Positions 429 to 56,061 of a stretch of 56,770 nt of DNA are shown here, in pieces. The number at the start of each line of letters is the position of its first letter. Position 1 is the stretch's first letter. The translations under genes were made by a program, and so were the position numbers. Under the pieces are notes generated by a model, which was not told the origin of the DNA, did not search any database, and worked only from the letters and a program-made list of their open reading frames with translations. Source of the DNA: a virus (taxonomy: Duplodnaviria; Caudoviricetes); the IMG/VR virus record IMGVR_UViG_3300045526_000101, positions 1 to 56,770 of that record. The stretch is one strand, 5' to 3'.

Positions 429-466
429 ATAATCAAGTTTTATAGTTTAAAAATTTTAGTTCGGGG

Positions 467-658
467 TTATTCCCAATCAAGTTGCCTTAAAGACATTTTT
501 CCATTCAGCAAATCAGCTAATTCCGCTTTGGAAACTATAGCCACATTCCATCCATCAGATGTGTCGTGGATTTCAAACTGGTCTTCTGAGACTCTGTATA
601 TCTCTCTAGTAATAAGACCAAATTTCCAGTCTTGCCATGTGTCAATAGCTTGTGTCAT
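467..658 (-). CDS. hypothetical early protein
   Basis: 63-aa ORF in a co-directional array, AT-rich leader. Confidence 0.6.
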   Translation of the reverse strand: MTQAIDTWQDWKFGLITREIYRVSEDQFEIHDTSDGWNVAIVSKAELADLLNGKMSLRQLDWE

Positions 659-674
659 TTGAATTAAATTTTAT

Positions 675-733
675 GGTTAAGACCATCGGGGCATTGCCCC
701 TAGGTTTCTGCCATTAGGCGTCATCAGTTAACC
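675..733 (-). ncRNA. hammerhead ribozyme, type I (variant stem II)
   Basis: Minus strand GGUUAA-CUGAUGA-C-GCC-UAAU-GGC-A-GAAA-CC-UA-GGGGC-AAU-GCCCC-GAU-GGUC^UUAACC: full core, 6-bp stem I, GUC cleavage triplet (cut after 681); atypical C.A at the base of stem II. Confidence 0.75.
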
Positions 734-962
734 TTGCGTTCAATTCCATATCGGCTTCCATAAATAAATCACCGAAGGCATCTGTCACCTCTGTAGGGAG
801 GTATTTTTCTATGTGCCTGTATGAACGTACTAGGGCAAAGAATTCGCCAATAAAACTTTTTATCTCCTCTAGTTCGTTATTGCTTAATCTGTCGGCATAA
901 AACTTTTCTGTAGTTATATGCTCCATGTTTTCATTGTGTTTACCATCTCCGTAAATAGCCAT
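714..962 (-). CDS. hypothetical early protein
   Basis: 82-aa ORF; its last codons and TAA lie inside the type I hammerhead. Confidence 0.6.
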   Translation of the reverse strand: MAIYGDGKHNENMEHITTEKFYADRLSNNELEEIKSFIGEFFALVRSYRHIEKYLPTEVTDAFGDLFMEADMELNARLTDDA

Positions 963-1002
963 AGTATTAAATTTTAATTGTTAAAAAATTTCAGTTCGGG
1001 GG

Positions 1003-1077
1003 TTACATACATAACCCTAAGCACATGGCCGCAAATGCTATCAGCAGCCACATAATATCCTGTTGATTCTTTTTCAT
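1003..1077 (-). CDS. 24-aa hydrophobic peptide
   Basis: MKKNQQDIMWLLIAFAAMCLGLCM*; ATGA overlap with the upstream ORF; below the ORF-track cutoff. Confidence 0.5.
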   Translation of the reverse strand: MKKNQQDIMWLLIAFAAMCLGLCM

Positions 1078-1205
1078 ATTGATTCTATTAAGGTTCGTAA
1101 TGATTTCGCCACAATAGACTGAGGGAAGAATACGTAGGCGATAATTTGCGTCATGTCAAAAAGTGCCACCATAAACAGGAGGCCGATAAGTAATTTTTCT
1201 TTCAT
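1074..1205 (-). CDS. 43-aa membrane peptide
   Basis: MKEKLLIGLLFMVALFDMTQIIAYVFFPQSIVAKSLRTLIESI*; first ORF after the type III hammerhead. Confidence 0.55.
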   Translation of the reverse strand: MKEKLLIGLLFMVALFDMTQIIAYVFFPQSIVAKSLRTLIESI

Positions 1206-1236
1206 TGTAATTAGTGTTTAAGTATCTAAAATAGAG

Positions 1237-1290
1237 ACGTTTCGGCCTGTCCTTTGGCCTCATCAGTAGCGGAGGTTTACCGCTATACGC
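1237..1290 (-). ncRNA. hammerhead ribozyme, type III
   Basis: Minus strand GCGUA^UAGCGG-UAAACCU-CCGCUA-CUGAUGA-GGCC-AAAGGACA-GGCC-GAAACGU: canonical core, 6-bp stem I, 4-bp stem II, 4-bp stem III, GUA triplet (cut after 1286); loop I CCU can pair with loop II AGG. Confidence 0.9.
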
Positions 1291-1483
1291 TTTTCACTTA
1301 TTCGGCAAGTGCGAGGCGATAAATCAGCCTGTCTATTCTCCGATATAGTCTCATTCCTTCCGGCTCTAGAGACCCAACAACCTAACTTGAACATGGTCAA
1401 GGTTTGTCGCCTTCTGAACTACTAACAAAGCTTTGGGATGCCTTGTCGCCTCCGTAGAGGGTGTCGTGGATAAGTCCGTTGAC
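1291..1483 (-). ncRNA. structured 5' leader of the early transcript
   Basis: No ORF; successive hairpins (GGA-CUUA-UCC, CCUC-UACG-GAGG, CUUGA..UCAAG, GUCUC..GAGAC, AGGC..GCCU, CACUU..AAGUG); AGGCGACAA occurs twice. Confidence 0.45.
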
Positions 1484-1487
1484 AGAG

Positions 1488-1520: not shown

Positions 1521-1749
1521 TTTATTTTTGTAACATTGTTGCAAATATGGAATCAGCTAAAACAATTAGCTAGTGTTTATGCAGGTTACAGCCGATAAAA
1601 ATTTTTTTGTGTAGTATTGATGGGCATCTAACGGGTACGGGCAACCGAAAACCATGATGAGTACTGATTAAAAACAATATGTTAAAGAAATGTTAATCCC
1701 AAAAATTGTCCAGTTTGGTCAAGCCAAAACTTGCCAGTTCGGGGGCATA

Positions 1750-3353: not shown

Positions 3354-3851
3354 TTGTTCAGAACTCAAAAGTTTCAGGTGCAGTATATAGCTAGACAGTA
3401 TAGACCCAAAGCCAAGGAGCAGAGTGACCTACTCTGTAAACTAGAGACAATAAGATTGTTCTCTACACACCCAAAGTATAGAGCTGTGATGGCGGAAGAC
3501 TTTTACCCAGATGATCCAAAGGTTCAGTACAGAGCCGACATGATCTTGACTGAGAATGGCGAACATAAGTATAGTCTGGAGGTGGAGCATAAGTGGATCT
3601 GGGATCAGGAGTTCCCCTGGCCGGATGTACAGTTCCTTCCCAGGAAGAAAGAGAAGTGGGACGATCCGAGGTTTACGTATGGTAAGCCAACCCATTTCAT
3701 TATGTATAATCGAGATGCCTCACGGCATCTGGTCATCTTCGATGACACTATACGAAATCTAGAGAACAGAAGAATGGTCAACTGCCAACAGAGGGGGCTG
3801 GAAGAATTATACTACGTACCGCTAGACCAGGTGCATTTTGACTATCTATGA
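3354..3851 (+). CDS. PD-(D/E)XK-like nuclease / hypothetical protein
   Basis: ADMIL...LEVEHK catalytic-like spacing; start uncertain (GTG 3378 plausible). Confidence 0.45.
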   Translation: MFRTQKFQVQYIARQYRPKAKEQSDLLCKLETIRLFSTHPKYRAVMAEDFYPDDPKVQYRADMILTENGEHKYSLEVEHKWIWDQEFPWPDVQFLPRKKEKWDDPRFTYGKPTHFIMYNRDASRHLVIFDDTIRNLENRRMVNCQQRGLEELYYVPLDQVHFDYL

Positions 3852-4099
3852 AAAAACACACTAAAATTTATTTAAAACATTTTGATTATGGTATCGATGA
3901 TTTTATTCCCTGCGAGGCATGCGGAAGTCGTGCTGTTGACATTCACCATATTGATTGTCGGGGTATGGGTGGCAGCAAAGCTAAAGACGAGATCGAAAAT
4001 CTAATGGCCCTGTGTAGGTCATGCCATATAAAGTATGGCGATAAAAAACAATACATAGAATTTTTAAAATCCAAACATCAATGCAGATTAGAAAAGTAG
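3848..4099 (+). CDS. HNH endonuclease
   Basis: CEACG..DIHHI...NLMALCRSCH. Confidence 0.85.
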   Translation: MKKHTKIYLKHFDYGIDDFIPCEACGSRAVDIHHIDCRGMGGSKAKDEIENLMALCRSCHIKYGDKKQYIEFLKSKHQCRLEK

Positions 4100-4725
4100 A
4101 CTTCCCTGCAAGTCAGTACATCCAGGAGGAGCATCCTAAAAAACAGATCTATCTACACCATACTGCTGGTGGGCCGGACGGGGTAAGAACATTTAGCAGT
4201 TGGGCAAATAACAAAGAAAGAATAGCCACCTGTGTAGCCATATCGGGTAAAGGTCGTGGCTGTAAGGATGGAGAAATCATCCAGGGATTTTCTTCCAAGC
4301 ATTGGGCCTTTCATTTAGGTCTGAAGGAATCCACTTTTCAGAAACATGGCGTTAAGTACAAATCTCTTGATAAGATATCTATTGGTATTGAGATCTGTAA
4401 CTGGGGACACCTGACTGAAAAGGATGGAAAGTTTTATAACTATGTAGGCGGTGTTGTGGAGGATGTGATTAAACTTCCTAAGAGTTACAAGGGGCATCAG
4501 TTTTTTCATAACTATACAGATGCTCAGATAGAGTCAACCAGGGATCTATTGTTACTATGGAAAGAGCGTTATAAGATACCGCTTACCTATAACGAAGATA
4601 TATGGGATATATGCCCCCGAGCTCTCGAGGGTAAGGCTGGCGTCTTTACACATAACAGTGTGCGTACAGACAAGATTGACATCTACCCACATCCCAAGAT
4701 GATTGAGATGTTAAAGAGCCTTTAA
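4081..4725 (+). CDS. endolysin, N-acetylmuramoyl-L-alanine amidase (Amidase_2)
   Basis: IYLHHTAG, SIGIEICNWG, HNSVRTDKID Zn-ligand motifs. Confidence 0.9.
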   Translation: MQIRKVDFPASQYIQEEHPKKQIYLHHTAGGPDGVRTFSSWANNKERIATCVAISGKGRGCKDGEIIQGFSSKHWAFHLGLKESTFQKHGVKYKSLDKISIGIEICNWGHLTEKDGKFYNYVGGVVEDVIKLPKSYKGHQFFHNYTDAQIESTRDLLLLWKERYKIPLTYNEDIWDICPRALEGKAGVFTHNSVRTDKIDIYPHPKMIEMLKSL

Positions 4726-5487: not shown

Positions 5488-6036
5488 ATGCAATCACCTA
5501 CGAGAATTATCGTACAAATAGATAAAAAGTTTAACGACACGTCTAAAGGCGGTTTATATATTGACACTACTTACAAACCAGAGTATCATGTAAACATATC
5601 TGGTAAAGTAGTGGCGATTCCCAAACGCCTTCCTAAAGATTTTTCCAGAGAAGGGTACTACGCTACAGTTGAGGTTGGCGATAAGCTATACTTCCACTAC
5701 CTGGTAGTTCTAGATCCTGACTGTCATCTTTTTGACAACTATTATACAGTTGATTATTTCCAAGCCTTGGCTACTGTAAAGCCAGATGGCAAAGTTCTTC
5801 CAGTAGGAGAACATATTTTGATAGAACCTATGGAAGAAGAGATAACACATGATACGTTAGTTATCCCCGACCTGGCCAAAAAGGTGTCTCTAAATAAGGG
5901 TAAGGTATTCTCATCTAACGATCCATCTATTCCTAATGGAGCTATTGTAGGATTTGAGGAGCAGGGGAAGTTTGAGAATGAGATTGAGGGTCATACCCTA
6001 TACGTAATGTACAACAATAATATCCTATACAAATGA
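5488..6036 (+). CDS. GroES-like co-chaperonin (two tandem GroES-like domains)
   Basis: SKGGLYI..GKVVAIP..VEVGDKLYF followed by a second PVGEHILIEP..LVIPD..KGKV unit. Confidence 0.65.
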   Translation: MQSPTRIIVQIDKKFNDTSKGGLYIDTTYKPEYHVNISGKVVAIPKRLPKDFSREGYYATVEVGDKLYFHYLVVLDPDCHLFDNYYTVDYFQALATVKPDGKVLPVGEHILIEPMEEEITHDTLVIPDLAKKVSLNKGKVFSSNDPSIPNGAIVGFEEQGKFENEIEGHTLYVMYNNNILYK

Positions 6037-6383: not shown

Positions 6384-6625
6384 AGAAGTCACAAATAAAA
6401 CAAATACGAGAGGTGGCTGCAATGTTGCCTCCCGTATTTGAACAAACGGTATCTGGATTCTACGAAGAGGACAACAAGATTGTTCCGAATGTAGTCGTAC
6501 ATGAAATCAATCATGAAAGGAGATTACGAAAGGCATATGAAAAGCTGGGTATGGAAGGCATACACCAGTATTTAGATATGATCAAAAAACTACAGCAAGA
6601 TAGAAGAGATGCCTTTGAACGGTGA
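6380..6625 (+). CDS. hypothetical protein
   Basis: 81-aa ORF coupled to neighbours. Confidence 0.6.
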   Translation: MKKSQIKQIREVAAMLPPVFEQTVSGFYEEDNKIVPNVVVHEINHERRLRKAYEKLGMEGIHQYLDMIKKLQQDRRDAFER

Positions 6626-6962
6626 TGCTATCGAGTCTTTGTTTGATTATGTGGCGATGTCTAAAGGCTTCACTGTCTCTGCACCTCAATCAAACATGGC
6701 GCAATACGACAGAATTATTGATGTGAACAATAAACTATTTAGAGTTCAGATCAAGGGCAGGAGGGGATTAGACAATCAGGTACTTGTTATCCCAAAAAGA
6801 AAACAAGGCAAAGTTCAGTATGGAGATAACGATTACGATGTACTGGCTGTGTATATAGAGAATAATAATTCCTGGTATTTCTATACAGATAAGAAAAAGG
6901 CATTTAAGATCAACACAAATAAAGAAGCACTAAACAACTGGGACATCTTTGAAACGCTTTAA
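6609..6962 (+). CDS. PD-(D/E)XK endonuclease
   Basis: E..F...YDRIID....RVQIK...YDVLAVY. Confidence 0.75.
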   Translation: MPLNGDAIESLFDYVAMSKGFTVSAPQSNMAQYDRIIDVNNKLFRVQIKGRRGLDNQVLVIPKRKQGKVQYGDNDYDVLAVYIENNNSWYFYTDKKKAFKINTNKEALNNWDIFETL

Positions 6963-7494: not shown

Positions 7495-8106
7495 TTGCAA
7501 GGTAATCTGTACCAAATGATCCCAAACGAAGAGTTCTCTAGAATGGAGTTTAATCCCTTAATTAAGGGTAAGCTTCTGGACAAACATCCAAAGCTAAAGT
7601 CTATTCTAAAAGAAGGTGATGATCGTATGATTAGGTATATCCTTTTGATGTATGATCAGCATTCTCCACTACGTCACCACTACCCAGACTTGTTTAAGAG
7701 AAAGCAGTTTGCTGCAGATCTAGCGGGATATGATCTCGATAAAGAAGATGTCGTATCCGTATATGAGTTTAGGATAAAGGTAGAGGATGGATATGAACCA
7801 TATGAGGAGTTGATTGAGTTGACCATGAAGTATCTGAAATATCAGAACAACATGGTGTGGCAAATGATCGTGAGTAATGAGCAGGCATTCTATGAATACA
7901 ACAGAAGGGTGATGATGCCTGTAGATGGAGCTAAGGATAAAGATATACTCCAGGCGGTAGAAATTAAGACTAAGATAATGGCGGCAATGGACGATATATT
8001 CCAGAGGCTGCAGAAGTATAAAAGAGAATTGACAGGTGGAGATGAAAAGCTAGAGGATGTGGTGGTGAAAAAAAGATTAACCCCAGAAAGTTTAGCTAAG
8101 AGGTAA
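7495..8106 (+). CDS. putative terminase small subunit
   Basis: Directly upstream of and coupled to terL; helical; likely ATG at 7516. Confidence 0.45.
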   Translation: MQGNLYQMIPNEEFSRMEFNPLIKGKLLDKHPKLKSILKEGDDRMIRYILLMYDQHSPLRHHYPDLFKRKQFAADLAGYDLDKEDVVSVYEFRIKVEDGYEPYEELIELTMKYLKYQNNMVWQMIVSNEQAFYEYNRRVMMPVDGAKDKDILQAVEIKTKIMAAMDDIFQRLQKYKRELTGGDEKLEDVVVKKRLTPESLAKR

Positions 8107-10106
8107 TGTATAATAAGGTAGAAAAAGGTACGCTTGAGGTTGTAAGTGGGATTGAGTGTTGGATCCCTCCTGTTGGTTACGGTGTAGATCGTATTACTGG
8201 CGAGTTGGTACGTGTAGGTGTTTATGAGAGAAGTCCTAAAAGGGCTGAACAAAAGTGGGAGAGAATAGATCTGCCAAGAGATTATGAAAAGAAACGAGCT
8301 AAGGAGCAGGCTCGACAAAAAGATGATCCAGAGTTCTTTGACCCCGAACTGGAATCCATTCGTGAGAAACATTGGATGTATAGACGATGTGGATTTTGGT
8401 TCAAAAATAATGGAGTACCAACCTACATAACAGGAACGCACTGGTATTATTTGAACTGGTGTGTAACCAACATAGGTTACATGGAATATAGAAATACAGA
8501 CAGAAAAATATTCTACTGTTTGGCTTCCGTAGAGAATGACCCCCGAGCTGGCGGACTGGTGTATGTATCGAGACGAAGAGGTGGTAAGACGTATATCGCA
8601 GGAGCCTGGTTGTTAGATCGGGTGAGTTTAGGATTAGATAAGATTGGCGGGATACAGAGTAAGACAGATGAGGACGCTAAGGTGGTATTTAATAAAACCA
8701 TAGTAAACTATTTTGTCAACCTTCCTCACTTCTTTAAACCTATTTACGATACATCACAAGGTCTTCGTCCAAAGAAAGAGTTGAGGTTCTTTAAACCAAC
8801 CATCAAAGGTAAAAATGCAGATGACATGCTGCATGGTGATGAGCTAAGAAGTACTATAAACTTCGGATCTAGTGAACCATTTGCTTATGACGGGAATGCT
8901 CTGTATGGATACATACTGGATGAATTTGGTAAGCCACAACGTGCTAATGTTTGGGATACCTGGAACATCGTTCGATACTGTATGGATCAGGATGGTAGAT
9001 GGGTAGGAAAGGCTTTTGTTACATCAACCATTGAAGATATAGATGTAACGGGCCAGGGCCCAAAAGACATATGGATCAACTCAGATCAGGGCAAGCGTGA
9101 TGGTAACGGTAGAACAACTTCTGGATTATATAGACTATTCTTTGGCGCACATGAGTCAACATTCTTTGATGAGTTCGGAAATGAAATGGTTGAAAGAGGT
9201 CTTGAGTATTACAACAACATGCGTAAGGCATATGCACATGATACTCGCCAATTAAGTTCAATCATCAGAAAGAATCCGTTTACAATCGAAGAGGCTTTCA
9301 GAGTAGATGGCGACAAGTGTTTGTATGATGCCATGAAGTTGAATGAGAGGCTGGATCGATTAACCTGGAAGGAGAATCTAACAACAAGAGGAAACTTTGT
9401 ATGGGAGGGTGGCGTAAGAGATTCCAGAATAGTGTGGGAACCAGCAGATAATGGTAAGTGGGAGGTTGCTACCATGTTTGATAAAACGGAAGAAACAAAT
9501 AAAGTTAGCAAACGTGGAGATCTGTTCTACCCAAACAACACCAGGTTTGTGATGGGAGTTGACCCGATAGATCATAACACTACTGAAGATGGTAGAAGAT
9601 CTAACGGTGCAGCACTGGTACTACAGAAGTATAGTCCATTAGATAGCAGTCCTTATAATAACGCCTTCATCTGTAAGTACAAACACAGACCAGATTCAGT
9701 AGCAGTATTCTATGAGGATATGATAAAAATGGCGGTGTTCTATGGGTGTAGTGTTTTGTTTGAGAATAACAAAATTGGATTGCTCAGGTATTTTGAAGAT
9801 CGGGGGTATGGTAACTTTTTAATATGGCTACCAGATAGACAACAACCTGGTATTGCCGCTTCACCAAAGACACATCAATACATCGCTGAGTTGACAGAGA
9901 CGTATATAAACGATAATCACGAACGAGTATTTTTTAAAGACTTGATTCAAGAGTGGTTGGAGTTTGACTTAAATAACACAACAAAATATGACGTTGCGAT
10001 GAGTGCTGGATACACACTGATTGCAGATCAATATAAGGTAGTAAAGAAAGAAAAGGAAGTAGTGACAGATATAGGCGGATTCTTTAAGACATATAAGGTA
10101 GGATAA
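8106..10106 (+). CDS. terL: terminase large subunit
   Basis: Walker A-like SRRRGGKT, Walker B YILDEFGK, RNase H-like GVDPIDH and YD..MSAG. Confidence 0.9.
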   Translation: MYNKVEKGTLEVVSGIECWIPPVGYGVDRITGELVRVGVYERSPKRAEQKWERIDLPRDYEKKRAKEQARQKDDPEFFDPELESIREKHWMYRRCGFWFKNNGVPTYITGTHWYYLNWCVTNIGYMEYRNTDRKIFYCLASVENDPRAGGLVYVSRRRGGKTYIAGAWLLDRVSLGLDKIGGIQSKTDEDAKVVFNKTIVNYFVNLPHFFKPIYDTSQGLRPKKELRFFKPTIKGKNADDMLHGDELRSTINFGSSEPFAYDGNALYGYILDEFGKPQRANVWDTWNIVRYCMDQDGRWVGKAFVTSTIEDIDVTGQGPKDIWINSDQGKRDGNGRTTSGLYRLFFGAHESTFFDEFGNEMVERGLEYYNNMRKAYAHDTRQLSSIIRKNPFTIEEAFRVDGDKCLYDAMKLNERLDRLTWKENLTTRGNFVWEGGVRDSRIVWEPADNGKWEVATMFDKTEETNKVSKRGDLFYPNNTRFVMGVDPIDHNTTEDGRRSNGAALVLQKYSPLDSSPYNNAFICKYKHRPDSVAVFYEDMIKMAVFYGCSVLFENNKIGLLRYFEDRGYGNFLIWLPDRQQPGIAASPKTHQYIAELTETYINDNHERVFFKDLIQEWLEFDLNNTTKYDVAMSAGYTLIADQYKVVKKEKEVVTDIGGFFKTYKVG

Positions 10107-48129: not shown

Positions 48130-49810
48130 ATGGTTGACCTACGAATTTTGTATCGTCCGAACCATCGTTGATTTTTTCTGCTGGCTCGAAACGAGAGTTA
48201 TTAATATTGTAAGTGAAGTATGATGTACCTACCTCTCCAGAATACTTGAACCTTATCTTCCATCTATGTACTTCTGTCTGCTTGGTTTCAAAGTTTCTAT
48301 ACACTGTTAGGCCATTGTCCACCAGGTTAAACCAGTGAGAAGAATCACCAACATCGTATCCGTTAGGTACTTCGTAATTGTTTTTAATCTTGGATATCTT
48401 CTTTGGATGCGCCACTAGATATACATGTACACCGTAGTTCCTGGCGAACCTGGATACATCATTCATGATTAACTTAATCTGATGATGTCTTGTGTCTGAC
48501 TGATTAGATAGGCTCTTCTCAACCGTACTCATGTTATCTATCACCAGACCATTGATACCATATCGCTTCACCATTTCTTTTGCCTTACCTAGAATACCTT
48601 CAATAGTTAGGTCGTTATCACTTAGTCTATAATACTTGAAGTGTTCATTCATGAACGGAGTCAATGACTCAACTTCCTCTTTAGATACACGTTCAGCGTA
48701 TGGCTGTTTAAAGAATGACTTCCCGGTAACAATCTGAAACATTTCACTCAGCGCATGAGCTGTGTTCGCTTCTTCTGCTGAATAGATAAAGAATCTTTGA
48801 TCGTGATCAAGGGCTAATAAAGACATTACATTTCTTAAGAATGAAGACTTACCATGACCAGGTATCCCTGTGATCAATGTTACCTGACCCGGATGCCATA
48901 TCATTCCAGAACCAACGTCTGCACCCTTTGGGTAACCTTCTTCATACAGACGAAGAATCTCTTCCCTTACAGAATAAGCATCGTCTATACCCTCTACTGG
49001 AAATGGAGTGGCGGAGTTGTAACATTCTACCAAACGATCTGCGCCATACGTGGTTAGTACCTCATTGGCATCCTTGCATGGGAAGTCAATGATCATGCAG
49101 TTCTCTTTGCCTAAACGCCTGGCTAGTTCATTTCTAAGTGCAAGACCTGGCTCATCGGTATCAGTGGCGATATAGATCTTCTTGCCTTCAAATACATGAA
49201 CGAATTCGTCTAGCCATTCTAGTTTTTGAGATCCTTTGCTTGCCCCGTTAGGAACCGATACAGCCGTTTTAATCCCTGACTCATAGAATGATAGAGCATC
49301 GATCTCTCCCTCGCAAATAATAATTTCAGAATCGCTATTATCACATGCAATATCAATGCCGTAAGGCCCAAGAAGAGCACCACTAACCAGCTTAAAATTT
49401 TTATCCCTATCTCTGTGCTTAATGTTGAAAATCTTCCCATTGTAGTAATAGTTAAAATGTATAGTTCTAACTTCCTTTTCTGCCTGGGGCATGTAGTCTA
49501 TACCTTCTGTAACCTGATAGCGAAGAAGAGTTTGATTGGATATCCCCCGAGCTGCGAACCAACTGATAACCTGATCGGATAGATTCTTATGTTCTACTTG
49601 TGGTATTACATACTCCTTCTCAATCTTTCTAGTTACAGCACCCTTGAATCCACAGTTATGACAATTCCAGATACCCTCCTCAACATCAACGCTGAGACAT
49701 GGATCGTTCTTTTTCTTTCGATCCTGGCTACACTTAGGGCATGTGGTCTTTATATTACCACGTTGGCCAAAGCGAACATTGATTCCGAGCTTCTGTAATT
49801 CTTGTATCAT
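48080..49810 (-). CDS. primase-helicase (T7 gp4/Twinkle-like)
   Basis: CPKC..CHNC Zn finger, TOPRIM EGEIDALS/DTD, SF4 helicase TGIPGHGKS, VID, LVAHP. Confidence 0.92.
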   Translation of the reverse strand: MIQELQKLGINVRFGQRGNIKTTCPKCSQDRKKKNDPCLSVDVEEGIWNCHNCGFKGAVTRKIEKEYVIPQVEHKNLSDQVISWFAARGISNQTLLRYQVTEGIDYMPQAEKEVRTIHFNYYYNGKIFNIKHRDRDKNFKLVSGALLGPYGIDIACDNSDSEIIICEGEIDALSFYESGIKTAVSVPNGASKGSQKLEWLDEFVHVFEGKKIYIATDTDEPGLALRNELARRLGKENCMIIDFPCKDANEVLTTYGADRLVECYNSATPFPVEGIDDAYSVREEILRLYEEGYPKGADVGSGMIWHPGQVTLITGIPGHGKSSFLRNVMSLLALDHDQRFFIYSAEEANTAHALSEMFQIVTGKSFFKQPYAERVSKEEVESLTPFMNEHFKYYRLSDNDLTIEGILGKAKEMVKRYGINGLVIDNMSTVEKSLSNQSDTRHHQIKLIMNDVSRFARNYGVHVYLVAHPKKISKIKNNYEVPNGYDVGDSSHWFNLVDNGLTVYRNFETKQTEVHRWKIRFKYSGEVGTSYFTYNINNSRFEPAEKINDGSDDTKFVGQPYGKEDIQKFKRLTDIV

Positions 49811-50367
49811 TTTTTATTCCAATACATGGTGGCTTGATCGAGGTATTCCATAAACTTCTTAGGACTTCTGAATAGTGTAGTGGGCCGATTGTATTCCTTC
49901 ATCTTCTCATCATCTCCCCAGGTTTCTTTCTTGTGAATGATTACACTTCTGAAGTGATCTATAGTGAGCCTTGGCATAGCCTTTAGGATTGCCTTAACCA
50001 GTTCTATATTGTTAGGTAATTGGTATCGTGTACCATTAATTTCATTGAACAACTCTACAGCCTCCTTAGCCAGTTCGATATTGGCGGTAGTGACTTCTAC
50101 ATTGTTATCAATAGTCGCCATGAACCAGTGCTTAGTAGGGTATATACTTCCGTTCTCAGCTATCTCAAGGAGAGCAGGTTGAGATGTTCGCATATCATCA
50201 ACTGCTACAGACACCGCTCTGACACTCAGGCCAAGAGCCTCCGCCACAGAAGTGATGGAGGTCGAGAGCCAGAGGTTCTTGTATTGGGAACAGAGGTCTG
50301 CAACTAGGTAATGAACCGATGATATGCCTAGCTTCTGCCGGACATTATGATCGATTGCTTGTATCAT
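49807..50367 (-). CDS. replication initiator-like protein (N-terminal HTH, conserved phage C-terminal domain)
   Basis: VAEALGLS.RAV HTH; W.DDEKM.EY.RP.TLF...KF.EYL. Confidence 0.7.
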   Translation of the reverse strand: MIQAIDHNVRQKLGISSVHYLVADLCSQYKNLWLSTSITSVAEALGLSVRAVSVAVDDMRTSQPALLEIAENGSIYPTKHWFMATIDNNVEVTTANIELAKEAVELFNEINGTRYQLPNNIELVKAILKAMPRLTIDHFRSVIIHKKETWGDDEKMKEYNRPTTLFRSPKKFMEYLDQATMYWNKK

Positions 50368-50780
50368 ACTTGTATGTATTGTTCCATTTTTAAATAGGGG
50401 TTACTCTTTGAATTGAACTTGATAGCATTCAAGCAAAGACCCGTCTTGATAAATATTTTAGAAGTATTATCGTTATGCTCTTTAAGAACTCCGGCATATT
50501 CTCTTCTCTTTCCTTCTCGCCAAGACTCACGGAAGTTCATTAGCTTATTACGATACGTATCATAACCGCAGTCCAGGTATTCCATAACCTCAGTCTGCTT
50601 ATGTCCATACATATCTGCCAGACCTACAAATACCGTCCTGGCCAGTTCTAGATTGCCTTCGAAATCTTCGTTGACTTGCATTTTCTTCTGTGGATTCTTA
50701 TGCCATATAAACTGAGGTCTCATAATCGCCTCTAAGTCTGTTAGTTTGATCATAGTTTGATATTGAATTGTTTCCGCCAT
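50364..50780 (-). CDS. hypothetical protein (HTH-like)
   Basis: ARTVFVGLA..YG.KQ.EV..YL; true start probably MIKL. Confidence 0.5.
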   Translation of the reverse strand: MAETIQYQTMIKLTDLEAIMRPQFIWHKNPQKKMQVNEDFEGNLELARTVFVGLADMYGHKQTEVMEYLDCGYDTYRNKLMNFRESWREGKRREYAGVLKEHNDNTSKIFIKTGLCLNAIKFNSKSNPYLKMEQYIQV

Positions 50781-51730
50781 GTGATCTTGCCATTGGGCAG
50801 GATCAAATTGGTTGCACCTTCCTTCTCCATTACCTGCTTAAGGCGGTTCTGAAATAATTGTTTCTCTGATTCTAATGATTTGATCTGACTGCTTATGTCC
50901 TGGTGAGTTCTTGCCCATTCTTCATGCTCTTCTGTACCTTGTATTGTAATCTCTTCCTCACGAGCTTTGTGTTTTTCGGATATGAAGGCATCAAACGCCT
51001 TAGAGTTATCAGCTTCAGGCTCATATAGTGTAGCCATCTGCCAAGCTTCATCACCTTCTAACTGCACAATAGCCTCCCGAGCTGCACGTACCCTGTTATA
51101 ATACTCTTCTGCCTCAAACAAGATTCTATCCTGCAATTCCTGGTCTCGTTCAAATGTTACCAGTCCAAGTTGTCTGCCATCTTTTAAATAGCATATCTCT
51201 GCGTATTTCAATTCAGTCACAAGCATATAGTGTTGCACTTGGAGTAGATAGCTCGGTGGGATACCTGCCTCATAAGCATCAGAGGAATAGCCGGAGATCG
51301 TTTTGATCTCCAGTATTCCCTGTCCCTTGTAGTCGGGATGTTTGGTGATAATGCCATCCACATTAGCAAACAGAAATGGATATTTCGGATTGATGGCAAT
51401 AGCTTTTAGCTTCTTATATTTCTTTATCTTATTATCCTTAAGAGTGTTCTCAACCCAACCTTCTTCTGTACCATCGAAGTACTGCCAACAACTAGCTACA
51501 TAATCTTCTAGTTGTTTGCCATGTAGCATGGCGGCATTCATCTTGTTGGGTACATTAGATAATCCTATCGCCTGATAGAATAAATTGATCGGTGATTTAT
51601 ATTGATTGAGACCGAGTAAGGTTCCTGCATCGGATCCACCTACCATACCTTTGGTTACAAATGATTGGCGCAGGCTCTGCCATTCAGCCTCGCTAAGCTT
51701 GGCTGTGGGAATTAATTCTAGATGTTTCAT
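50750..51730 (-). CDS. YqaJ-like viral recombinase exonuclease
   Basis: W...R...GGSDAG..LG..Y.SP; ANVDG; LEIKT; Y..QVQHYM. Confidence 0.9.
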   Translation of the reverse strand: MKHLELIPTAKLSEAEWQSLRQSFVTKGMVGGSDAGTLLGLNQYKSPINLFYQAIGLSNVPNKMNAAMLHGKQLEDYVASCWQYFDGTEEGWVENTLKDNKIKKYKKLKAIAINPKYPFLFANVDGIITKHPDYKGQGILEIKTISGYSSDAYEAGIPPSYLLQVQHYMLVTELKYAEICYLKDGRQLGLVTFERDQELQDRILFEAEEYYNRVRAAREAIVQLEGDEAWQMATLYEPEADNSKAFDAFISEKHKAREEEITIQGTEEHEEWARTHQDISSQIKSLESEKQLFQNRLKQVMEKEGATNLILPNGKITWRKQFNIKL

Positions 51731-52338
51731 TATTTCTTTTTAGCAGCTTTGATTACGGCCTCTGATTTAGACTTATTGATGAGTGAGGTGAGGACTTTCT
51801 TCTGCGCATCATTCAATGCATACTTCTTTAGCGCACCTTCTACTTCATTAATCTTACCCTCGTTGATGAACTTTACCATCGCATCGTATTTATCCTGGGT
51901 AAGAGGCGGATGTTCGTTAGATACGTTTATTGCAGGACTAGCTTTTACAGTCTGCGAATTGCGAACTGCGGCATTCCCATCATCATCTTCATCTTGAATG
52001 ATCAGGTTTAATAACCCAGTCATAGAGTATCTTTTAGCGTATGATACTGCTGAACCATAGTCCTGTGCCGAGGCTTTGGCTACTACAACTGGGAATACAG
52101 ATATAATAGATTCGCCAGACTCAACGTGCCATACAATTGTCTGAACAAATGGTAGTTCGTTTATAATAGTATTGGCCTGGGTCACAACAAGACCACAATC
52201 ATTTAGATATGGCTTGATATGCTGTTGAATAGACTCTAAAGTGGCGTACTTGGACTTGAAGAACGGATTATTTTCCGCCCTCTTGATTGCTGGACATGAT
52301 GCCTGGAACTTCGCCAGTGCTTTTAGAATTGATTTCAT
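51730..52338 (-). CDS. ERF-family ssDNA annealing protein
   Basis: NPFFKSKYATL, Q.YGSA.SYAKRYS, DDDGN; ATG at 52338. Confidence 0.9.
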   Translation of the reverse strand: MKSILKALAKFQASCPAIKRAENNPFFKSKYATLESIQQHIKPYLNDCGLVVTQANTIINELPFVQTIVWHVESGESIISVFPVVVAKASAQDYGSAVSYAKRYSMTGLLNLIIQDEDDDGNAAVRNSQTVKASPAINVSNEHPPLTQDKYDAMVKFINEGKINEVEGALKKYALNDAQKKVLTSLINKSKSEAVIKAAKKK

Positions 52339-52555
52339 CGATAAATTGTTTAGTGAACTGGTATTCATTGGCGAGAAAGTATATCTGCTGCCAATCGTAT
52401 GTGAACTTGGTGCGGTCACTTAGACGTATTGCCTTGATAAAGTGGCCATTGCAAAGCTGCTCGTGGTTTGAAAGCAGCCATTGTCTAAACGGCTTTAGAG
52501 GATAATCTTTACCCTCAACCGTCATTGTATCGTGGTTATAATCGTACTTAATCAC
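52268..52555 (-). CDS. hypothetical protein, first gene of the leftward replication operon
   Basis: Downstream of the TAATTTTG box. Confidence 0.5.
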   Translation of the reverse strand: MIKYDYNHDTMTVEGKDYPLKPFRQWLLSNHEQLCNGHFIKAIRLSDRTKFTYDWQQIYFLANEYQFTKQFIDEINSKSTGEVPGIMSSNQEGGK

Positions 52556-53131: not shown

Positions 53132-53142
53132 ATTTGTGGGGT

Positions 53143-53308: not shown

Positions 53309-53310
53309 AC

Positions 53311-53332
53311 AAAAAGCCCCCAGTTCGGGGGC
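53311..53332 (-). terminator. intrinsic terminator after the integrase
   Basis: GCCCCC-GAACT-GGGGGC-TTTTT on the minus strand. Confidence 0.7.
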
Positions 53333-53338
53333 CGTCTT

Positions 53339-54643
53339 TTATTCGCCAAGAAACTGTTTATAATAACTCGTAACCTCAGACTTGAAGTGCCGTTCTACAA
53401 AGGCGACATATCGTTCAAAGGCTACGCTATTGGAAGCATGACCACTACAGAACTTGATGTGTCTCTCAGGTACTTTATAGTAGATCATAGTAGTGATAGC
53501 GGTTTTCCTTAACATGTGCGGATGAACGTGTTGATACATGGGTTTGGTTTCGATAACCTCTTCCCCACGAACTCCGATAGTTTTGACCGTTGTTGGATTA
53601 TGCATCTCAGGATACAGGCTAAATAGATCCGCCATGTTATTGTATATGGTAGCGTAGCGATTGTCTTTTAGCGTGTAGATTCTCCCGAACTGAGCCAGGT
53701 TACGATCAAATACCTTCGCCAAAAACTTAGGCAGAGGAACATCTGTGTATTCCCTGGTCTTTCCATTCATCTTAGACATGAACATATCGTTCTTGACGAT
53801 CCGAATATCGCTAACTGATAGATCGATGGCGTCCCTTACCCTCATTGTAGTCACCAGCATCACCGAACAGACTTCCCATACATATTTTAGCAGCTCGGGG
53901 AGGTTATTATAGGTCTTTTCATCCGTCAGAAATCGCTGTACAAACTCAGGTTCTAATACGACTACTGGATTAGGATCAGCCTGGTAAAGTTTAATCTTTG
54001 GCGGCTGAAGATATAGATGTTCCTTCCAATAGTTCAGCATCACAGATACATTTAGAATGTAATTTGCCCTGGTTGCCATGCTATAGTTCATATCGATCAT
54101 CCATTCGTCCCATCCTGTGAAGTAACTATCCCATTTGTCGGTGATAAGCCGCTTCCGTTGGATAGTATCCTTTGGACTGATAGACATCTCTAACAAATCC
54201 AGGTTTCCTGCGATCTCACTATACTCATATAAGGATTCTATTGAATATTTATAGGCACTGATCGTTCCAGGTTTAAGTTGTCTATTCCCCCTCGACTTGA
54301 TCTCACCCTTGATTGCTTTTTTTAAATATTCCCGACACAGATAAGCCAGTTCGTAGGATTCTTTAGGCTCTTCCTGTATGTCGGTATAGCATGGGTTGAA
54401 ACTAGCCTTGATCTTTTTTAAATCGCCTTTATAGGTCACGTATAGATCTGTCAGGCGTACTCTGTTTCTATTGAGATCGTTATTCATGGCCATGACTTCG
54501 GGGGAATTGCCGACAAATTTTCCCTTGTCAAACTTCATACTCTTCGGGATCTTGATGCCTGTACTCAGCCGGAGGGAAACTGTTTTACCATCCGTTAACC
54601 GGGCCTGGATCGTGTTACCTCTTGCATTAAATGAAACTGTCAT
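53339..54643 (-). CDS. int: tyrosine recombinase / integrase
   Basis: Catalytic R (TTMRVRD), K (KT), HMLR, GH, Y (FERY); N-terminal LSTGIKI arm-binding segment of Bacteroidota integrases. Confidence 0.9.
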   Translation of the reverse strand: MTVSFNARGNTIQARLTDGKTVSLRLSTGIKIPKSMKFDKGKFVGNSPEVMAMNNDLNRNRVRLTDLYVTYKGDLKKIKASFNPCYTDIQEEPKESYELAYLCREYLKKAIKGEIKSRGNRQLKPGTISAYKYSIESLYEYSEIAGNLDLLEMSISPKDTIQRKRLITDKWDSYFTGWDEWMIDMNYSMATRANYILNVSVMLNYWKEHLYLQPPKIKLYQADPNPVVVLEPEFVQRFLTDEKTYNNLPELLKYVWEVCSVMLVTTMRVRDAIDLSVSDIRIVKNDMFMSKMNGKTREYTDVPLPKFLAKVFDRNLAQFGRIYTLKDNRYATIYNNMADLFSLYPEMHNPTTVKTIGVRGEEVIETKPMYQHVHPHMLRKTAITTMIYYKVPERHIKFCSGHASNSVAFERYVAFVERHFKSEVTSYYKQFLGE

Positions 54644-54951
54644 AAATTATTAGATTGGTGAAAAAACGGATAACTCTCTATAATATTGTTACACTTTCCA
54701 TTTCATTTTTACTCGTGTGACAAGGATCATTAAGAGACCGAACTTCATTATCTTACATACATGAATAGGTACATTAAAAGAATACATAGCACACATTTTG
54801 TTGTCACTTTGGCATCTAAAGCAATGATATTCAATTGATTATCTTTTTGCATTTATATTAGCCGACCTTACTGACAACTCAAATATAGTTTGTATTTCAA
54901 TTATTTGCAACAATTATCCACGAATTTGTCCACCACTATCCATTAGAATTG

Positions 54952-55314
54952 TCACGCAATTTCACGTATCATTTGCACAACCTCATCTACATCTACAAAG
55001 TATGGATTTTTATTTATTGATTCCTTAAGCAAGATATCATAAAGGTCTTTATACTCGGGTTCAAATTTGTATCGTATTTCATGGGCCTGGGTATGGTGAA
55101 TGGCGGTACTATGGTCTATGTTAAATAGGCGACCAATCTTTACAGGGCCGAGTTGATATTGATCGGCCAGGATATTCATTATACAAGCCTTGATCATCAC
55201 GACTTCAAATTTCCTAGACCTAACCACACGTACCTCCGAGTCTTTTACGTAAACAATTCCCTGTCCTGTGTAATCCTTAGCTATTTGAGCTAGTCTGAGT
55301 AGTTCCTCTGTCAT
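54952..55314 (-). CDS. DnaA C-terminal-like HTH protein
   Basis: SRK.EVV.......KIGRLFNIDHSTAIH. Confidence 0.7.
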   Translation of the reverse strand: MTEELLRLAQIAKDYTGQGIVYVKDSEVRVVRSRKFEVVMIKACIMNILADQYQLGPVKIGRLFNIDHSTAIHHTQAHEIRYKFEPEYKDLYDILLKESINKNPYFVDVDEVVQMIREIA

Positions 55315-55468
55315 TTCTATCGTTTAAAATTTCAATAAATTTATCACATAGCTCTTCGTTGATCTGCTTTAAGGCTTCTGCTATTCTTGCCGCCTCTCCC
55401 CTGGGTGCGGTTTCTATTCTCGTTAGTCCCTCGTTGATCTTGTGGAATACCTTTAATACATTGTTCAT
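55277..55468 (-). CDS. hypothetical protein
   Basis: 63-aa helical ORF. Confidence 0.45.
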   Translation of the reverse strand: MNNVLKVFHKINEGLTRIETAPRGEAARIAEALKQINEELCDKFIEILNDRNDRGTTQTSSNS

Positions 55469-55534
55469 ATTTCTTTAGGGTTTCGGGTGGATAATTAAGT
55501 TCTTTGTAGATGTGTAACATCCATTCATTGAAAG

Positions 55535-55891
55535 TCATATCTCGGTAAGTTTAAATACGCCTATTAAGTCCTTCTGTGAGTGCTTTTCTGTGTATGCAGC
55601 CAGGGCATCTGTGGCAGAAGGATAGATCTTAAACGACAATACCTTAGTTCCTAGAGATCGGAATACATACACCCACATCTCTTCCTCCTGGACTACCAGG
55701 TCAAACTCGCTTTGCTCTCCATCGGGTAGAAAATTTCCATTCGAATACCAGGTGAATAGCGTGCCGCCATCTACCAATCCTGCAAACATTTTGCCCACTA
55801 CATTAGGGAAATGAATTAGGTATTCTACTGGTTCTCCCCTTCTTGTGGTGACTTTAGCACCTCGTTGCCATTTTTCTAAATTAAATTCCAT
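55535..55891 (-). CDS. hypothetical protein
   Basis: FNLE....G.KV.TR.G..V...DL motif common in phages. Confidence 0.65.
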   Translation of the reverse strand: MEFNLEKWQRGAKVTTRRGEPVEYLIHFPNVVGKMFAGLVDGGTLFTWYSNGNFLPDGEQSEFDLVVQEEEMWVYVFRSLGTKVLSFKIYPSATDALAAYTEKHSQKDLIGVFKLTEI

Positions 55892-55914
55892 AAAGTGTAA
55901 TTTTTAAAAGTTTA

Positions 55915-55940
55915 AACTGGCAGACCGAAATCTGCCAGTT
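55915..55940 (-). terminator. strong hairpin / possible terminator
   Basis: AACTGGCAGA-(6 nt)-TCTGCCAGTT 10-bp perfect stem, followed on the minus strand by TAAACTTTT. Confidence 0.5.
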
Positions 55941-56061
55941 CGGGGGCTATCTCGTTGCCAACGCCTCTGTATAGCTTATCTCCAATGAAAGCACTACCAC
56001 ACAACCTGAAGATCATCAGCCATACTATGTCTATCCCAACCCCGAGGCCAGGGTGCAAGGG

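What the first reader, a model, noticed from the sequence alone, without database searches (positions are those of the whole stretch)
458..55946. Genome-wide over-represented, strand-biased motif (C)AG(Y)TCGGG(G/A)G
By eye I count 23 TCGGGGG (18 plus, 5 minus), almost all preceded by RGN. A rough zero-order expectation at ~40% GC is about 2. With 4-G and GGGAG variants the total is ~40. Copies occur inside genes in several reading frames and between genes, and the plus-strand bias persists in leftward-transcribed regions, so codon usage does not explain it. This points to a DNA-level signal. Inferred candidates: host Chi-like site, KOPS-like polar translocase site, packaging/ejection signal, or binding site of a phage DNA-coating protein (several HTH proteins are encoded).
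Basis: partly seen in the sequence, partly recalled or inferred. Interest (0 to 1): 0.82.

Follow-up and report, generated by a model that had tools for sequence, protein, structure and literature searches.

The report
Polar 11-base motif saturating a phage clade
A short G-rich DNA word, CAGYTCGGGGG, is about 80 times too frequent in this freshwater phage and all its close relatives. Its orientation flips at the replication genes, which fits a direction-sensitive DNA signal such as a recombination hotspot better than a by-product of the genes.

Summary
TCGGGGG occurs 23 times (18+/5-) against about 2.3 expected. The real word is (C)RG-N-TCGGGGG (22 vs 0.28 expected), with two weaker variants bringing the total to about 38 sites. 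Enrichment survives codon-preserving shuffles (15 vs 1).

The window is a whole, temperate-looking phage contig with Bacteroidota-style gene starts. All 11 clade members tested carry 13-35 copies, and 6 of 6 outgroups carry none. Existing copies are conserved about 5 times better than their surroundings, yet positions turn over between lineages while density is kept.

Orientation follows neither the strand nor transcription. It flips at the replication-initiator gene: leftward genes are 17 sense/4 antisense on one side and 8/26 on the other. A second minus-strand cluster lies at the terminase genes.

My best reading (about 0.4) is a Chi-like, orientation-dependent hotspot read by a translocating helicase-nuclease, as in the Chi-rich phages LLS and MD8. 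The main rival (about 0.2) is recognition sites of a phage nickase, as in the nicked phages tf and T5; the clade has its own HNH gene. I could not reach a host genome, so the decisive test is still open.

The parts
993..1002 (+). motif RG-N-TCGGGGG, intergenic
1736..1745 (+). motif (gCCAGTTCGGGGGc), intergenic
4614..4623 (-). motif, antisense in the amidase-like gene; part of the minus cluster upstream of TerL
8540..8549 (-). motif, antisense in the 5' part of TerL; position shared with 4 relatives (5 of 17 sequences)
9797..9806 (+). motif, sense in TerL; position shared by 7 of 17 genomes
11840..11849 (+). motif, sense in the portal gene
14021..14030 (+). motif, sense; position shared by 8 of 17 genomes
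16900..16909 (+). motif, sense; position shared by 6 of 16 genomes
24287..24296 (+). motif, sense
26172..26181 (+). motif, sense
29379..29388 (+). motif, sense in the 1215-aa virion protein gene
30638..30647 (+). motif, sense
31190..31199 (-). motif, antisense (minority orientation in the late block)
36035..36044 (+). motif, sense in the 2411-aa ORF
36641..36650 (+). motif, sense in the 2411-aa ORF
38329..38338 (+). motif, sense in the 2411-aa ORF
41160..41169 (+). motif, sense
44305..44314 (+). motif in the loop and 3' arm of hairpin GCCCCC-AGCTC-GGGGGC, between the convergent late and early blocks
45466..45475 (-). motif, sense in a leftward early gene (minus domain left of the initiator)
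49544..49553 (-). motif, sense in the primase-helicase gene (minus domain)
53316..53332 (+). bidirectional terminator hairpin GCCCCC-AGTTC-GGGGGC holding a motif copy (53322-53331), just downstream of the integrase gene
54495..54504 (+). TCGGGGG copy without G at -2 (the 1 of 23 exception), antisense in the integrase gene
55937..55946 (+). motif (gCCAGTTCGGGGGc), intergenic, directly after a 7-bp-stem hairpin
458..467 (+). 4-G variant RG-N-TCGGGGT
5864..5873 (-). 4-G variant, minus cluster upstream of TerL
8341..8350 (-). 4-G variant in the 5' part of TerL, minus cluster
19116..19125 (+). 4-G variant
23848..23857 (-). 4-G variant
26025..26034 (+). 4-G variant
41692..41701 (+). 4-G variant
53892..53901 (+). 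4-G variant, antisense in the integrase gene
1..10 (-). GGGAG variant (RG-N-TCGGGAG), lying exactly at the contig's left end
19702..19711 (+). GGGAG variant
25153..25162 (+). GGGAG variant
45886..45895 (-). GGGAG variant
46524..46533 (-). GGGAG variant
47762..47771 (+). GGGAG variant
51074..51083 (-). GGGAG variant
53682..53691 (-). GGGAG variant
49807..50367 (-). replication-initiator gene (Phg_2220_C). Motif polarity flips here in 7 of 7 genomes, so the origin is inferred to lie here
48080..49810 (-). primase-helicase (Toprim + DnaB_C). Candidate reader under the priming rival; clade-specific
50750..52419 (-). YqaJ-type exonuclease (50750-51730) and Erf annealase (51730-52419): the phage's own recombination module
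3848..4099 (+). 83-aa HNH endonuclease, 65-71% identical in 6 of 6 motif-positive genomes and not found in outgroup G021. Candidate nickase
6609..6962 (+). PD-(D/E)XK endonuclease, clade-specific
8106..10106 (+). large terminase. The second polarity divergence lies in its 5' part
53339..54643 (-). tyrosine integrase (temperate lifestyle inferred)

Best explanation
The word (S)CAG-Y-TCGGGGG-H is an orientation-dependent DNA signal kept at high density by selection. Most likely it is a Chi-like hotspot, read from one side by a helicase-nuclease that travels along the DNA from a double-strand end. In Bacteroidota that would be the host's AddAB-type enzyme.

On meeting a correctly oriented copy, the enzyme would stop degrading the DNA and hand the 3' end to recombination. 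This would protect phage DNA ends and broken replication forks and feed recombination-dependent replication, as in the Chi-rich phages LLS and MD8.

Shown here: the enrichment, its independence from coding, its presence throughout the clade, the constraint on sites, and the four-domain polarity with flips at the initiator gene and at the terminase genes.

For: 1. Statistics match the known Chi-rich phages. Here there are 23 core copies (18:5) in 56.8 kb against 2.3 expected. Phage LLS has 23 Chi in 42.8 kb, 20:3, against 0.85 expected, and phage MD8 has 32 host-type Chi in one orientation (PMC12315714, passages read).

2. The geometry is the same as in LLS. The G-rich word sits on the top strand with the terminase genes at the left, and is denser in the region to the right of the initiator (about 0.60 vs 0.40 '+' sites per kb, pooled over 7 genomes).

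3. Selection acts on density. Sites occur in all frames and use rare codons. Intergenic DNA (5-9% of the genomes) holds 37 of 218 copies. Positions turn over between lineages. Close pairs under 300 bp are under-represented in 7 of 7 genomes.

4. Both orientations are enriched: antisense 4 vs 0.76. They are also placed non-randomly.
- The flip lies at the initiator gene. Sites in the primase-helicase gene are 9-/1+ and sites in exo+Erf are 2-/8+ (Fisher p=0.005).
- Leftward genes are 17 sense/4 antisense on one side and 8/26 on the other (p=6e-5).
- Minus sites are concentrated around terS and the 5' part of TerL: 12-/11+ there vs 30-/160+ elsewhere (p=2e-4).
This is what an orientation-dependent reader entering at DNA ends or forks predicts.

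5. Existing sites are under constraint: 2 of 120 motif bases changed against 10.6 expected.

6. The clade keeps one and the same word over GC 0.37-0.51.

7. The Chi sequence of Bacteroides AddAB was still unknown in PMC2887965 (2010; passages read), so no known Chi contradicts this word. My searches found no later identification.
Against: 1. No host genome could be examined. Seven Bacteroidota plasmids show no genome-wide excess over the reversed-pattern control: Flavobacterium, two from Haliscomenobacter, Pontibacter, Fulvitalea, Bacteroides finegoldii and Hymenobacter.

2. No unrelated phage lineage with the true word turned up. The searches were narrow.

3. The phage has its own recombination module (YqaJ exonuclease, Erf, RusA). 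In PMC12315714 the Chi-rich phages are mostly those without such a module.

4. The word has 10-11 specified bases. That is longer than any Chi I know of (5-8 nt, recalled), and its enrichment (about 80-fold) exceeds that of LLS (about 27-fold).

5. The word co-occurs strictly with a clade-specific replication/recombination module and an HNH gene. That fits a phage-encoded reader equally well.
Confidence: 0.4

Rival explanations
1. The word is the recognition site of a phage-encoded nicking endonuclease, with the 83-aa HNH protein at 3848-4099 as the candidate. Virion DNA would then carry localized single-strand interruptions at the word, as in phages T5, tf and phiKMV-like phages.
For: Phage tf has 14 copies of a 9-bp consensus, all nicked. 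Its relatives PaP3 and LUZ24 keep 8-9 copies, and the word is specific to that phage group (PMC3517423, passages read). Copy number, word length and clade specificity there are close to what is seen here.

The HNH gene is 65-71% identical in 6 of 6 motif-positive genomes and is not found in outgroup G021. A PD-(D/E)XK nuclease is also clade-specific.

Close pairs of sites are avoided, which would prevent double-strand breaks. No unrelated lineage carries the word.
Against: In tf, T5 and phiKMV-like phages all sites lie on one strand. Here 59 of 245 copies (24%) lie on the minority strand. That strand is itself enriched and arranged in domains that flip at the initiator gene. Positions turn over strongly. 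Small HNH genes near terminase genes are common packaging accessories (abstract of PMC3592412 seen), so the gene's presence is weak evidence.
Confidence: 0.2
2. The word is a replication signal read by the phage's own replisome, for example a preferred priming or loading site of the clade-specific Toprim/DnaB-type primase-helicase on the lagging-strand template.
For: The polarity flips at the initiator and primase-helicase genes in 7 of 7 genomes. The word co-occurs strictly with this replication module. Mean spacing is 1.5-2.4 kb, which is about Okazaki-fragment size (recalled). The word starts with (C)AG, the complement of the CTG start site of DnaG-type primases (recalled). The enzyme has a CxxC motif in its N-terminal part (peptide WNCHNCGF; N-terminal primase match).
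Against: Known primase recognition sites are 3-5 nt (recalled), and nothing explains selection on 11 bases. To explain all four domains, a second origin near the terminase genes has to be assumed. Spacing is close to random, with gaps up to 9 kb.
Confidence: 0.12
3. The word is a KOPS-like guide for a host DNA translocase (FtsK type). The phage would keep it because it lives as a prophage or plasmid in the host.
For: The word is G-rich and polar, and its orientation diverges from the inferred origin. The phage looks temperate (integrase, cI-like HTH).
Against: The skew is only 76%. The convergence points (about 2-4 kb and about 44-45 kb) are not at the recombinase gene (53.3-54.6 kb). An integrated prophage would need one uniform polarity. 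An 80-fold enrichment in a 57-kb replicon has no known rationale. The Bacteroidota plasmids tested show no excess.
Confidence: 0.06
4. The word is the binding site of a phage DNA-binding protein (HTH repressor, nucleoid-like or coating protein).
For: The word is clade-specific. Several small proteins are also clade-specific, among them orf81 with a weak H-NS-like hit and orf120 with a weak DnaA-C HTH hit, both below the curated cut-offs.
Against: There is no clustering and no palindromic symmetry. Why the orientation would flip at the initiator gene is not explained. The cI-like HTH protein is not present throughout the clade (3 of 6).
Confidence: 0.05
5. The word is a DNA uptake sequence of a naturally competent host (DUS/USS-like), carried over into the phage.
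For: It is a 10-11-mer, enriched about 80-fold, found in all frames, in excess between genes and inside terminator hairpins.
Against: It has strong, organised polarity, whereas DUS/USS are about equally frequent in both orientations (recalled). Related phages have none. The plasmids tested show no excess.
Confidence: 0.03
6. It is a by-product of coding, transcription or RNA-level selection.
For: In the late block most copies are on the sense strand.
Against: The enrichment survives synonymous and codon-order shuffles. Copies lie in all three frames with rare codons. In leftward genes to the right of the initiator, 26 of 34 copies are antisense, and 31 of 32 intergenic copies there are on '+'. 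There is no Rfam match.
Confidence: 0.02

Closest known systems
Chi-rich lambdoid phages (E. coli phage LLS; Pseudomonas phage MD8), PMC12315714
   Same: There are tens of copies of one short G-rich word per roughly 45-57 kb genome, against about 1 expected. Orientation bias is 80-100%, on the top strand with the terminase genes at the left, and copies are denser toward the right-hand region.
   Different: In those phages the word is the host's known Chi and the phages lack a recombination module. Here the host and its Chi are unknown and the phage has exonuclease, Erf and RusA. The word is longer (10-11 nt), and its polarity flips in a block next to the initiator gene.
Localized nick sites of phages tf, T5 and phiKMV-like phages (PMC3517423)
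   Same: A phage-group-specific asymmetric 7-9-bp (or longer) consensus is repeated about 5-17 times, strand-biased and independent of transcription direction. Related phages keep it.
   Different: There every copy is on one strand and positions are similar between relatives. Here 24% of copies are on the other strand, arranged in domains, and positions turn over. Whether nicks exist here is unknown.
Bacterial Chi and KOPS/AIMS (polar chromosome words)
   Same: They are over-represented G-rich words whose orientation diverges from the replication origin. About 75% of E. coli Chi lie on the leading strand (recalled).
   Different: This case is a 57-66 kb virus, with two divergence points and much higher density and enrichment.
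DNA uptake sequences (Neisseria DUS, Haemophilus USS)
   Same: Word length, degree of enrichment, occurrence in all frames and use inside terminator hairpins.
   Different: DUS/USS are not polar (recalled). Here orientation is organised, and relatives with the same virion genes have no copies.

Membership tests
Chi (crossover hotspot instigator) sites / Chi-rich phages | Short G-rich word strongly over-represented beyond what composition and coding explain | tested here: met
   23 vs 2.3; 22 vs 0.28 for the 10-mer; survives codon shuffles
Chi (crossover hotspot instigator) sites / Chi-rich phages | Orientation bias tied to replication direction or DNA ends, not to transcription | tested here: met
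   Flip at the initiator gene in 7 of 7 genomes; Fisher p=6e-5 and p=0.005. Minus cluster at terS/TerL
Chi (crossover hotspot instigator) sites / Chi-rich phages | The same word over-represented and skewed in the host chromosome | not testable with these tools
   No host genome was reachable. Seven Bacteroidota plasmids show no excess, but the taxon sampling is small
Chi (crossover hotspot instigator) sites / Chi-rich phages | Recognised by RecBCD/AddAB with a change of nuclease activity | not testable with these tools
   Needs biochemistry
Chi (crossover hotspot instigator) sites / Chi-rich phages | Word length of 5-8 nt (recalled range of known Chi) | tested here: inconclusive
   The invariant core is 7 nt, but positions -4 to -1 and +7 add preferences, giving 10-11 nt in all
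Chi (crossover hotspot instigator) sites / Chi-rich phages | Chi-rich phages lack their own recombination module (a trend reported in PMC12315714) | tested here: not met
   YqaJ exonuclease, Erf and RusA are present
Localized nick sites (T5 / tf / phiKMV type) | Phage-group-specific asymmetric consensus repeated many times per genome | tested here: met
   11 of 11 clade members positive, 6 of 6 outgroups with zero copies
Localized nick sites (T5 / tf / phiKMV type) | All copies on one DNA strand | tested here: not met
   186:59 majority to minority over 11 genomes; the minority strand is itself enriched
Localized nick sites (T5 / tf / phiKMV type) | Physical single-strand interruptions in virion DNA | not testable with these tools
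   Only assembled contigs of the runs are held
Localized nick sites (T5 / tf / phiKMV type) | Phage-encoded nickase | tested here: inconclusive
   A clade-specific HNH (PF01844, E=1.6e-7) and a PD-(D/E)XK gene exist; their specificity is unknown
KOPS / architecture-imparting sequences | Very high skew, converging on the dimer-resolution site | tested here: not met
   Skew is 76%; the convergence points are at about 2-4 kb and 44-45 kb, not at the recombinase gene
DNA uptake sequences | Both orientations about equally frequent | tested here: not met
   The bias is 3-4:1 in every genome
Primase recognition sites | 3-5-nt template word on the lagging-strand template | tested here: inconclusive
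   The geometry is compatible; the length is not

The most novel reading that the evidence does not exclude
The word belongs to a self-contained, phage-encoded polarity system. A virus would organise its own 57-66 kb genome into replichore-like domains with an 11-base word. The word would be read by its own machinery (HNH or PD-(D/E)XK nuclease, YqaJ/Erf recombination module, or primase-helicase) and not by the host. There would be two divergence points, one at the initiator gene and one at the terminase genes.
Probability: 0.3. Interest if true: 0.85.

Novelty: new variant of a known kind. Interest (0 to 1): 0.72.

Why it matters
If the word is the host's Chi, this phage clade supplies the first concrete candidate for the Chi sequence of a Bacteroidota AddAB-type enzyme. 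That sequence was explicitly unknown for B. fragilis AddAB in PMC2887965. A single in-vitro assay or a genome count could test the candidate. It would also show that Chi-rich phages occur outside Proteobacteria and even alongside a phage recombination module.

If the word is read by phage proteins instead, it would be a new kind of virus-encoded genome-architecture signal. It might also give a functional clue to the long-unexplained localized nicks of T5-like phages.

Either way, the word is a sharp marker of this uncultured freshwater phage clade: 13-35 copies in members against zero in outgroups.

Tried and rejected
Host genome test: not possible.
- The one scan of bacterial genomes, run with a portal alignment, gave only a 14.5-kb motif-free contig in a MAG labelled Parvibaculum. 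That MAG shows no excess (44 vs 49 control).
- A taxon name is not accepted as a centre.
- Plasmid records receive no kinship.
- The one metagenome scan, run with the integrase, gave two short fragments and no host junction.

Host clues. There is no tRNA gene. The protein atlas returned only viral clusters. The sequencing-run index says only 'freshwater/riverine metagenome' (20 rows holding the stretch from 12 studies, 2 rows being possible sources).

Unrelated phages carrying the word.
- The hairpin form was scanned across IMG/VR and gave 78 stretches. The enriched low-GC ones all belong to this clade. G010 and G007 looked enriched for TCGGGGG, but their copies lack the RG-N prefix or are a tandem repeat.
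- The tail-fibre C-terminus had no relatives.
- The C-terminal domain of gene 16387 is promiscuous (GC 0.30-0.68) and so is no proxy for the host.

Separating the modules. Primase-helicase relatives at 62% identity or more (12 loci) are all from the same clade. The 11 longer than 10 kb each carry 5-18 copies of GNTCGGGGG; the 4-kb fragment L191 carries 1. The 12 relatives at 39% identity or less carry none, apart from a single copy in L201. No mosaic genome was found.

Iterons. Three RCCAGTTCnAnATTG repeats lie in the initiator and orf138 genes of the window, but half-word clusters do not recur there in relatives.

Plasmid pHALHY01 has GGTTCGGGGGTTC arrays upstream of its first gene. Its proteins show no similarity to phage proteins, so this remains a lead only.

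GC skew as an independent marker of replication direction gave modest support, in 5 of 7 genomes.

Spacing regularity is weak (CV significantly low in 2 of 7 genomes).

Literature. A search for the word itself gave only incidental primer or sequence hits among the 25 listed.

Full report
OBSERVATION

TCGGGGG occurs 23 times in the 56,770-base window, 18 on the plus and 5 on the minus strand. One hundred dinucleotide-preserving shuffles give a mean of 2.33 and never more than 8. In an unbiased scan it is the most over-represented 7-mer under Markov orders 1 and 3.

Aligning the 23 sites shows a longer word. Position -3 is A or G in 23 of 23, position -2 is G in 22 of 23, position -1 is mostly C or T, position -4 is often C, and the base after the G-run is G only once. 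The full 10-mer RG-N-TCGGGGG occurs 22 times against 0.28 expected from a first-order model.

Two weaker forms are also enriched: RG-N-TCGGGG[ACT] (8 vs 0.92) and RG-N-TCGGGAG (8 vs 0.36).

NOT A CODING ARTEFACT

I used a simple longest-ORF gene map of 74 ORFs covering 95% of the window. It is naive; for example, ORF 53134-53373 is probably spurious. On this map the core word lies in all three frames: TCG-GGG, xTC-GGG-GGx and xxT-CGG-GGG, i.e. Ser-Gly, x-Gly-Gly and Arg-Gly.

Shuffling synonymous codons within each gene gives 0.99 sense-strand copies on average, against 15 observed (0 of 500 shuffles reach 15). The antisense strand has 4 against 0.76 (2 of 500). Permuting codon order gives 0.72 and 0.39.

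WHAT THE WINDOW IS

The window is the whole assembly, a single virus record rated linear and 82% complete. Its genes include:
- a large terminase about 31% identical to those of Flavobacterium and Cellulophaga podophages;
- a P22-type portal and virion and tail-fibre proteins;
- a leftward early block with primase-helicase, an initiator with a Phg_2220_C domain, a YqaJ-type exonuclease, Erf, RusA, a dNMP kinase, a tyrosine integrase and a cI-like HTH protein.

Only 6 of 74 ORFs have a Shine-Dalgarno-like sequence, and the leaders are A-rich. This fits a Bacteroidota host. The DNA occurs in freshwater and riverine metagenomes. There is no tRNA gene and no Rfam match.

DISTRIBUTION AMONG RELATIVES

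IMG/VR holds many relatives. In the 22-kb loci around the terminase gene, the word is the top or near-top 7-mer in relatives down to about 52% terminase identity. It is absent beyond that.

Over whole records:
- 5 of 5 near-complete relatives carry 23-40 TCGGGGG, against 3-4 for the reversed pattern.
- 11 of 11 further clade members carry 13-35 GNTCGGGGG, against 0-2 for the control.
- 6 of 6 outgroup records carry none. Three of these are rated 100% complete, two of them with terminal repeats.

The flank preferences are the same in all lineages examined, over GC 0.37-0.51. From 37 intergenic copies in 7 genomes, the unconstrained consensus is S-C-A-G-T-TCGGGGG-H followed by A/T-rich sequence. 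Intergenic DNA makes up 5-9% of these genomes but holds 17% of the copies.

SITE DYNAMICS

In codon-aware alignments of eight genes from up to 17 genomes, some positions are widely shared:
- one site in the terminase gene in 7 of 17;
- one site in gene 13100-14083 in 8 of 17;
- one site in gene 16387-17757 in 6 of 16.

Most sites, however, are lineage-specific. They often lie a few bases from a site in another lineage, or on the other strand. The capsid-like gene 14103-15428 has none in 17 of 17.

Against the closest relative, 13 of 15 alignable sites are intact. Only 2 of 120 specified bases differ, where local divergence predicts 10.6 (Poisson P=0.002).

Spacing is close to random or slightly even: the CV is below the random mean in 6 of 7 genomes and significantly so in 2. 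Pairs closer than 300 bp are fewer than random in 7 of 7 genomes.

Together this points to selection for the presence and density of the word, not for particular positions.

POLARITY

I rebuilt six further motif-positive genomes and the outgroup G021 from fetched pieces. I then mapped the sites on orthologous genes.

The orientation follows neither the plus strand nor transcription. In window coordinates there are four domains:
- plus from about 53.3 kb through the contig junction to 1.7 kb, where most genes run leftward and many copies are intergenic;
- minus at 4.6-8.5 kb, up to the 5' part of the terminase gene;
- plus from 9.8 to 44.3 kb, the late block, with two exceptions;
- minus at 45.5-49.5 kb, the leftward replication genes.

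All seven genomes show the same arrangement. Pooled:
- Leftward genes to the left of the initiator gene have 17 sense and 4 antisense copies. Those to its right have 8 sense and 26 antisense (Fisher p=6e-5). Intergenic copies to its right are 31 plus to 1 minus.
- Sites in the primase-helicase gene are 9 minus to 1 plus. Sites in the exonuclease and Erf genes are 2 minus to 8 plus (p=0.005).
- Around terS and the terminase start (-4 kb to +0.6 kb), minus copies are 12 of 23, against 30 of 190 elsewhere (p=2e-4).

These pooled tests treat related genomes as independent. Site turnover only partly justifies that.

After masking the word, leftward genes are more C-skewed to the left of the initiator than to its right in 5 of 7 genomes. 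This is modest independent support for a replication-linked asymmetry. That the flip marks an origin is an inference.

WHO READS IT

Compared with outgroup G021, the motif-positive genomes share a distinct set of genes:
- a distinct replication/recombination module: RusA, primase-helicase, initiator, a 138-aa ORF, YqaJ exonuclease and Erf;
- an 83-aa HNH endonuclease;
- a PD-(D/E)XK nuclease;
- a few small ORFs.

Primase-helicase relatives at 62% identity or more all belong to the same clade, so no mosaic genome separates these modules from the virion genes or from the word.

The host could not be reached with the tools. Seven Bacteroidota plasmids from five orders show no general excess. I found no unrelated phage lineage with the true word, though the searches were narrow.

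COMPARISON WITH KNOWN SYSTEMS

Two precedents fit.

Chi-rich lambdoid phages. Phage LLS has 23 Chi in 42.8 kb, 20 of them in the active orientation on the top strand with the terminase genes at the left. They are concentrated at the right end, against 0.85 expected. Pseudomonas phage MD8 has 32 host-type Chi, all in one orientation (PMC12315714: abstract, outline and passages read). Numbers and geometry match the present case.

Here, both orientations are enriched and placed in a position-dependent way. An orientation-dependent reader entering at DNA ends or at broken forks predicts exactly this. The Chi of Bacteroides AddAB was unknown in 2010 (PMC2887965, passages). My searches found no later identification.

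Against this reading, the Chi-rich phages in that paper mostly lack a recombination module, and this phage has one. The word is also longer than known Chi sequences.

Localized nick sites. Phage tf has 14 copies of a 9-bp consensus, all in the top strand and all nicked. Its relatives keep 8-9 copies in one strand (PMC3517423, passages). Copy number, word length and clade specificity match, and the clade has its own HNH gene. But in those phages every copy is on one strand. Here 24% are on the other strand, arranged in organised domains.

VERDICT

The finding is real, highly significant and shared by a whole clade. It is a DNA-level, orientation-dependent signal under selection. My estimates are:
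- a Chi-like hotspot read by a host helicase-nuclease: about 0.4;
- a phage nickase site: about 0.2;
- a signal of the phage's own replisome: about 0.12;
- the remaining readings lower still.

I file it as a new variant of a known kind. It works like the Chi sites of Chi-rich phages. Membership cannot be granted until the host chromosome or the enzyme is tested. One trend of that group, the absence of a phage recombination module, is not met.

Noticed in passing
L184 5620-5660 and 5773-5812 (plasmid NC_015511 pHALHY01, about 163,620-163,810): There are two arrays of GGTTCGGGGGTTC-type repeats, with four exact matches to the phage 10-mer, all on one strand. They lie directly upstream of the plasmid's first gene, a 497-aa hypothetical protein with no Pfam family. 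The rest of the 164-kb plasmid shows no excess, and the plasmid's proteins show no similarity to phage proteins.
   Followed up: partly
window 14103-15428: The capsid-like (virion structural) gene has no TCGGGG copy in the window or in any of 16 relatives. About 0.5 copies per genome would be expected at the average density. Possibly the word's rare codons are avoided in a highly expressed gene.
   Followed up: partly
window 33687-40922: A 2411-aa ORF matches no PHROG family. It is conserved at 44-58% in the 6 other motif-positive genomes compared, and tblastn does not find it in outgroup G021.
   Followed up: no
window 49997-50011, 50069-50083, 50641-50655: Three iteron-like direct repeats RCCAGTTCnAnATTG lie inside the initiator and orf138 genes and share the word's 5' half. 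Comparable clusters do not recur at this place in relatives.
   Followed up: yes
window 1-10: The contig's left end coincides exactly with a GGGAG-variant copy of the word on the minus strand. Compared with relatives, the roughly 9 kb that the window lacks lies at this contig junction.
   Followed up: no
L004 + L082-L084 (record G003): The 'direct terminal repeat' of this 65,922-bp relative is a 127-bp identical end overlap. That looks more like a circular assembly than true genome ends.
   Followed up: partly
L089 3187-3460: An unrelated 102-kb viral contig carries about 18 tandem copies of a 15-bp unit, (C)GTCGGGGCCGCGTCC. This explains its apparent TCGGGG excess.
   Followed up: yes
window 17305-17754 (C-terminus of gene 16387-17757): A roughly 110-aa C-terminal domain is shared at 55-82% identity with phages of GC 0.30-0.68, including contigs over 160 kb. 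It is 72% identical in outgroup G021, whose other virion proteins are only 25-48% identical. This suggests a promiscuous fibre or decoration domain.
   Followed up: partly
L214 (IMG/VR contig of 51,238 bp): This lineage shares three virion proteins with the window at 43-64% identity but has no copy of the word in the 20 kb held.
   Followed up: no
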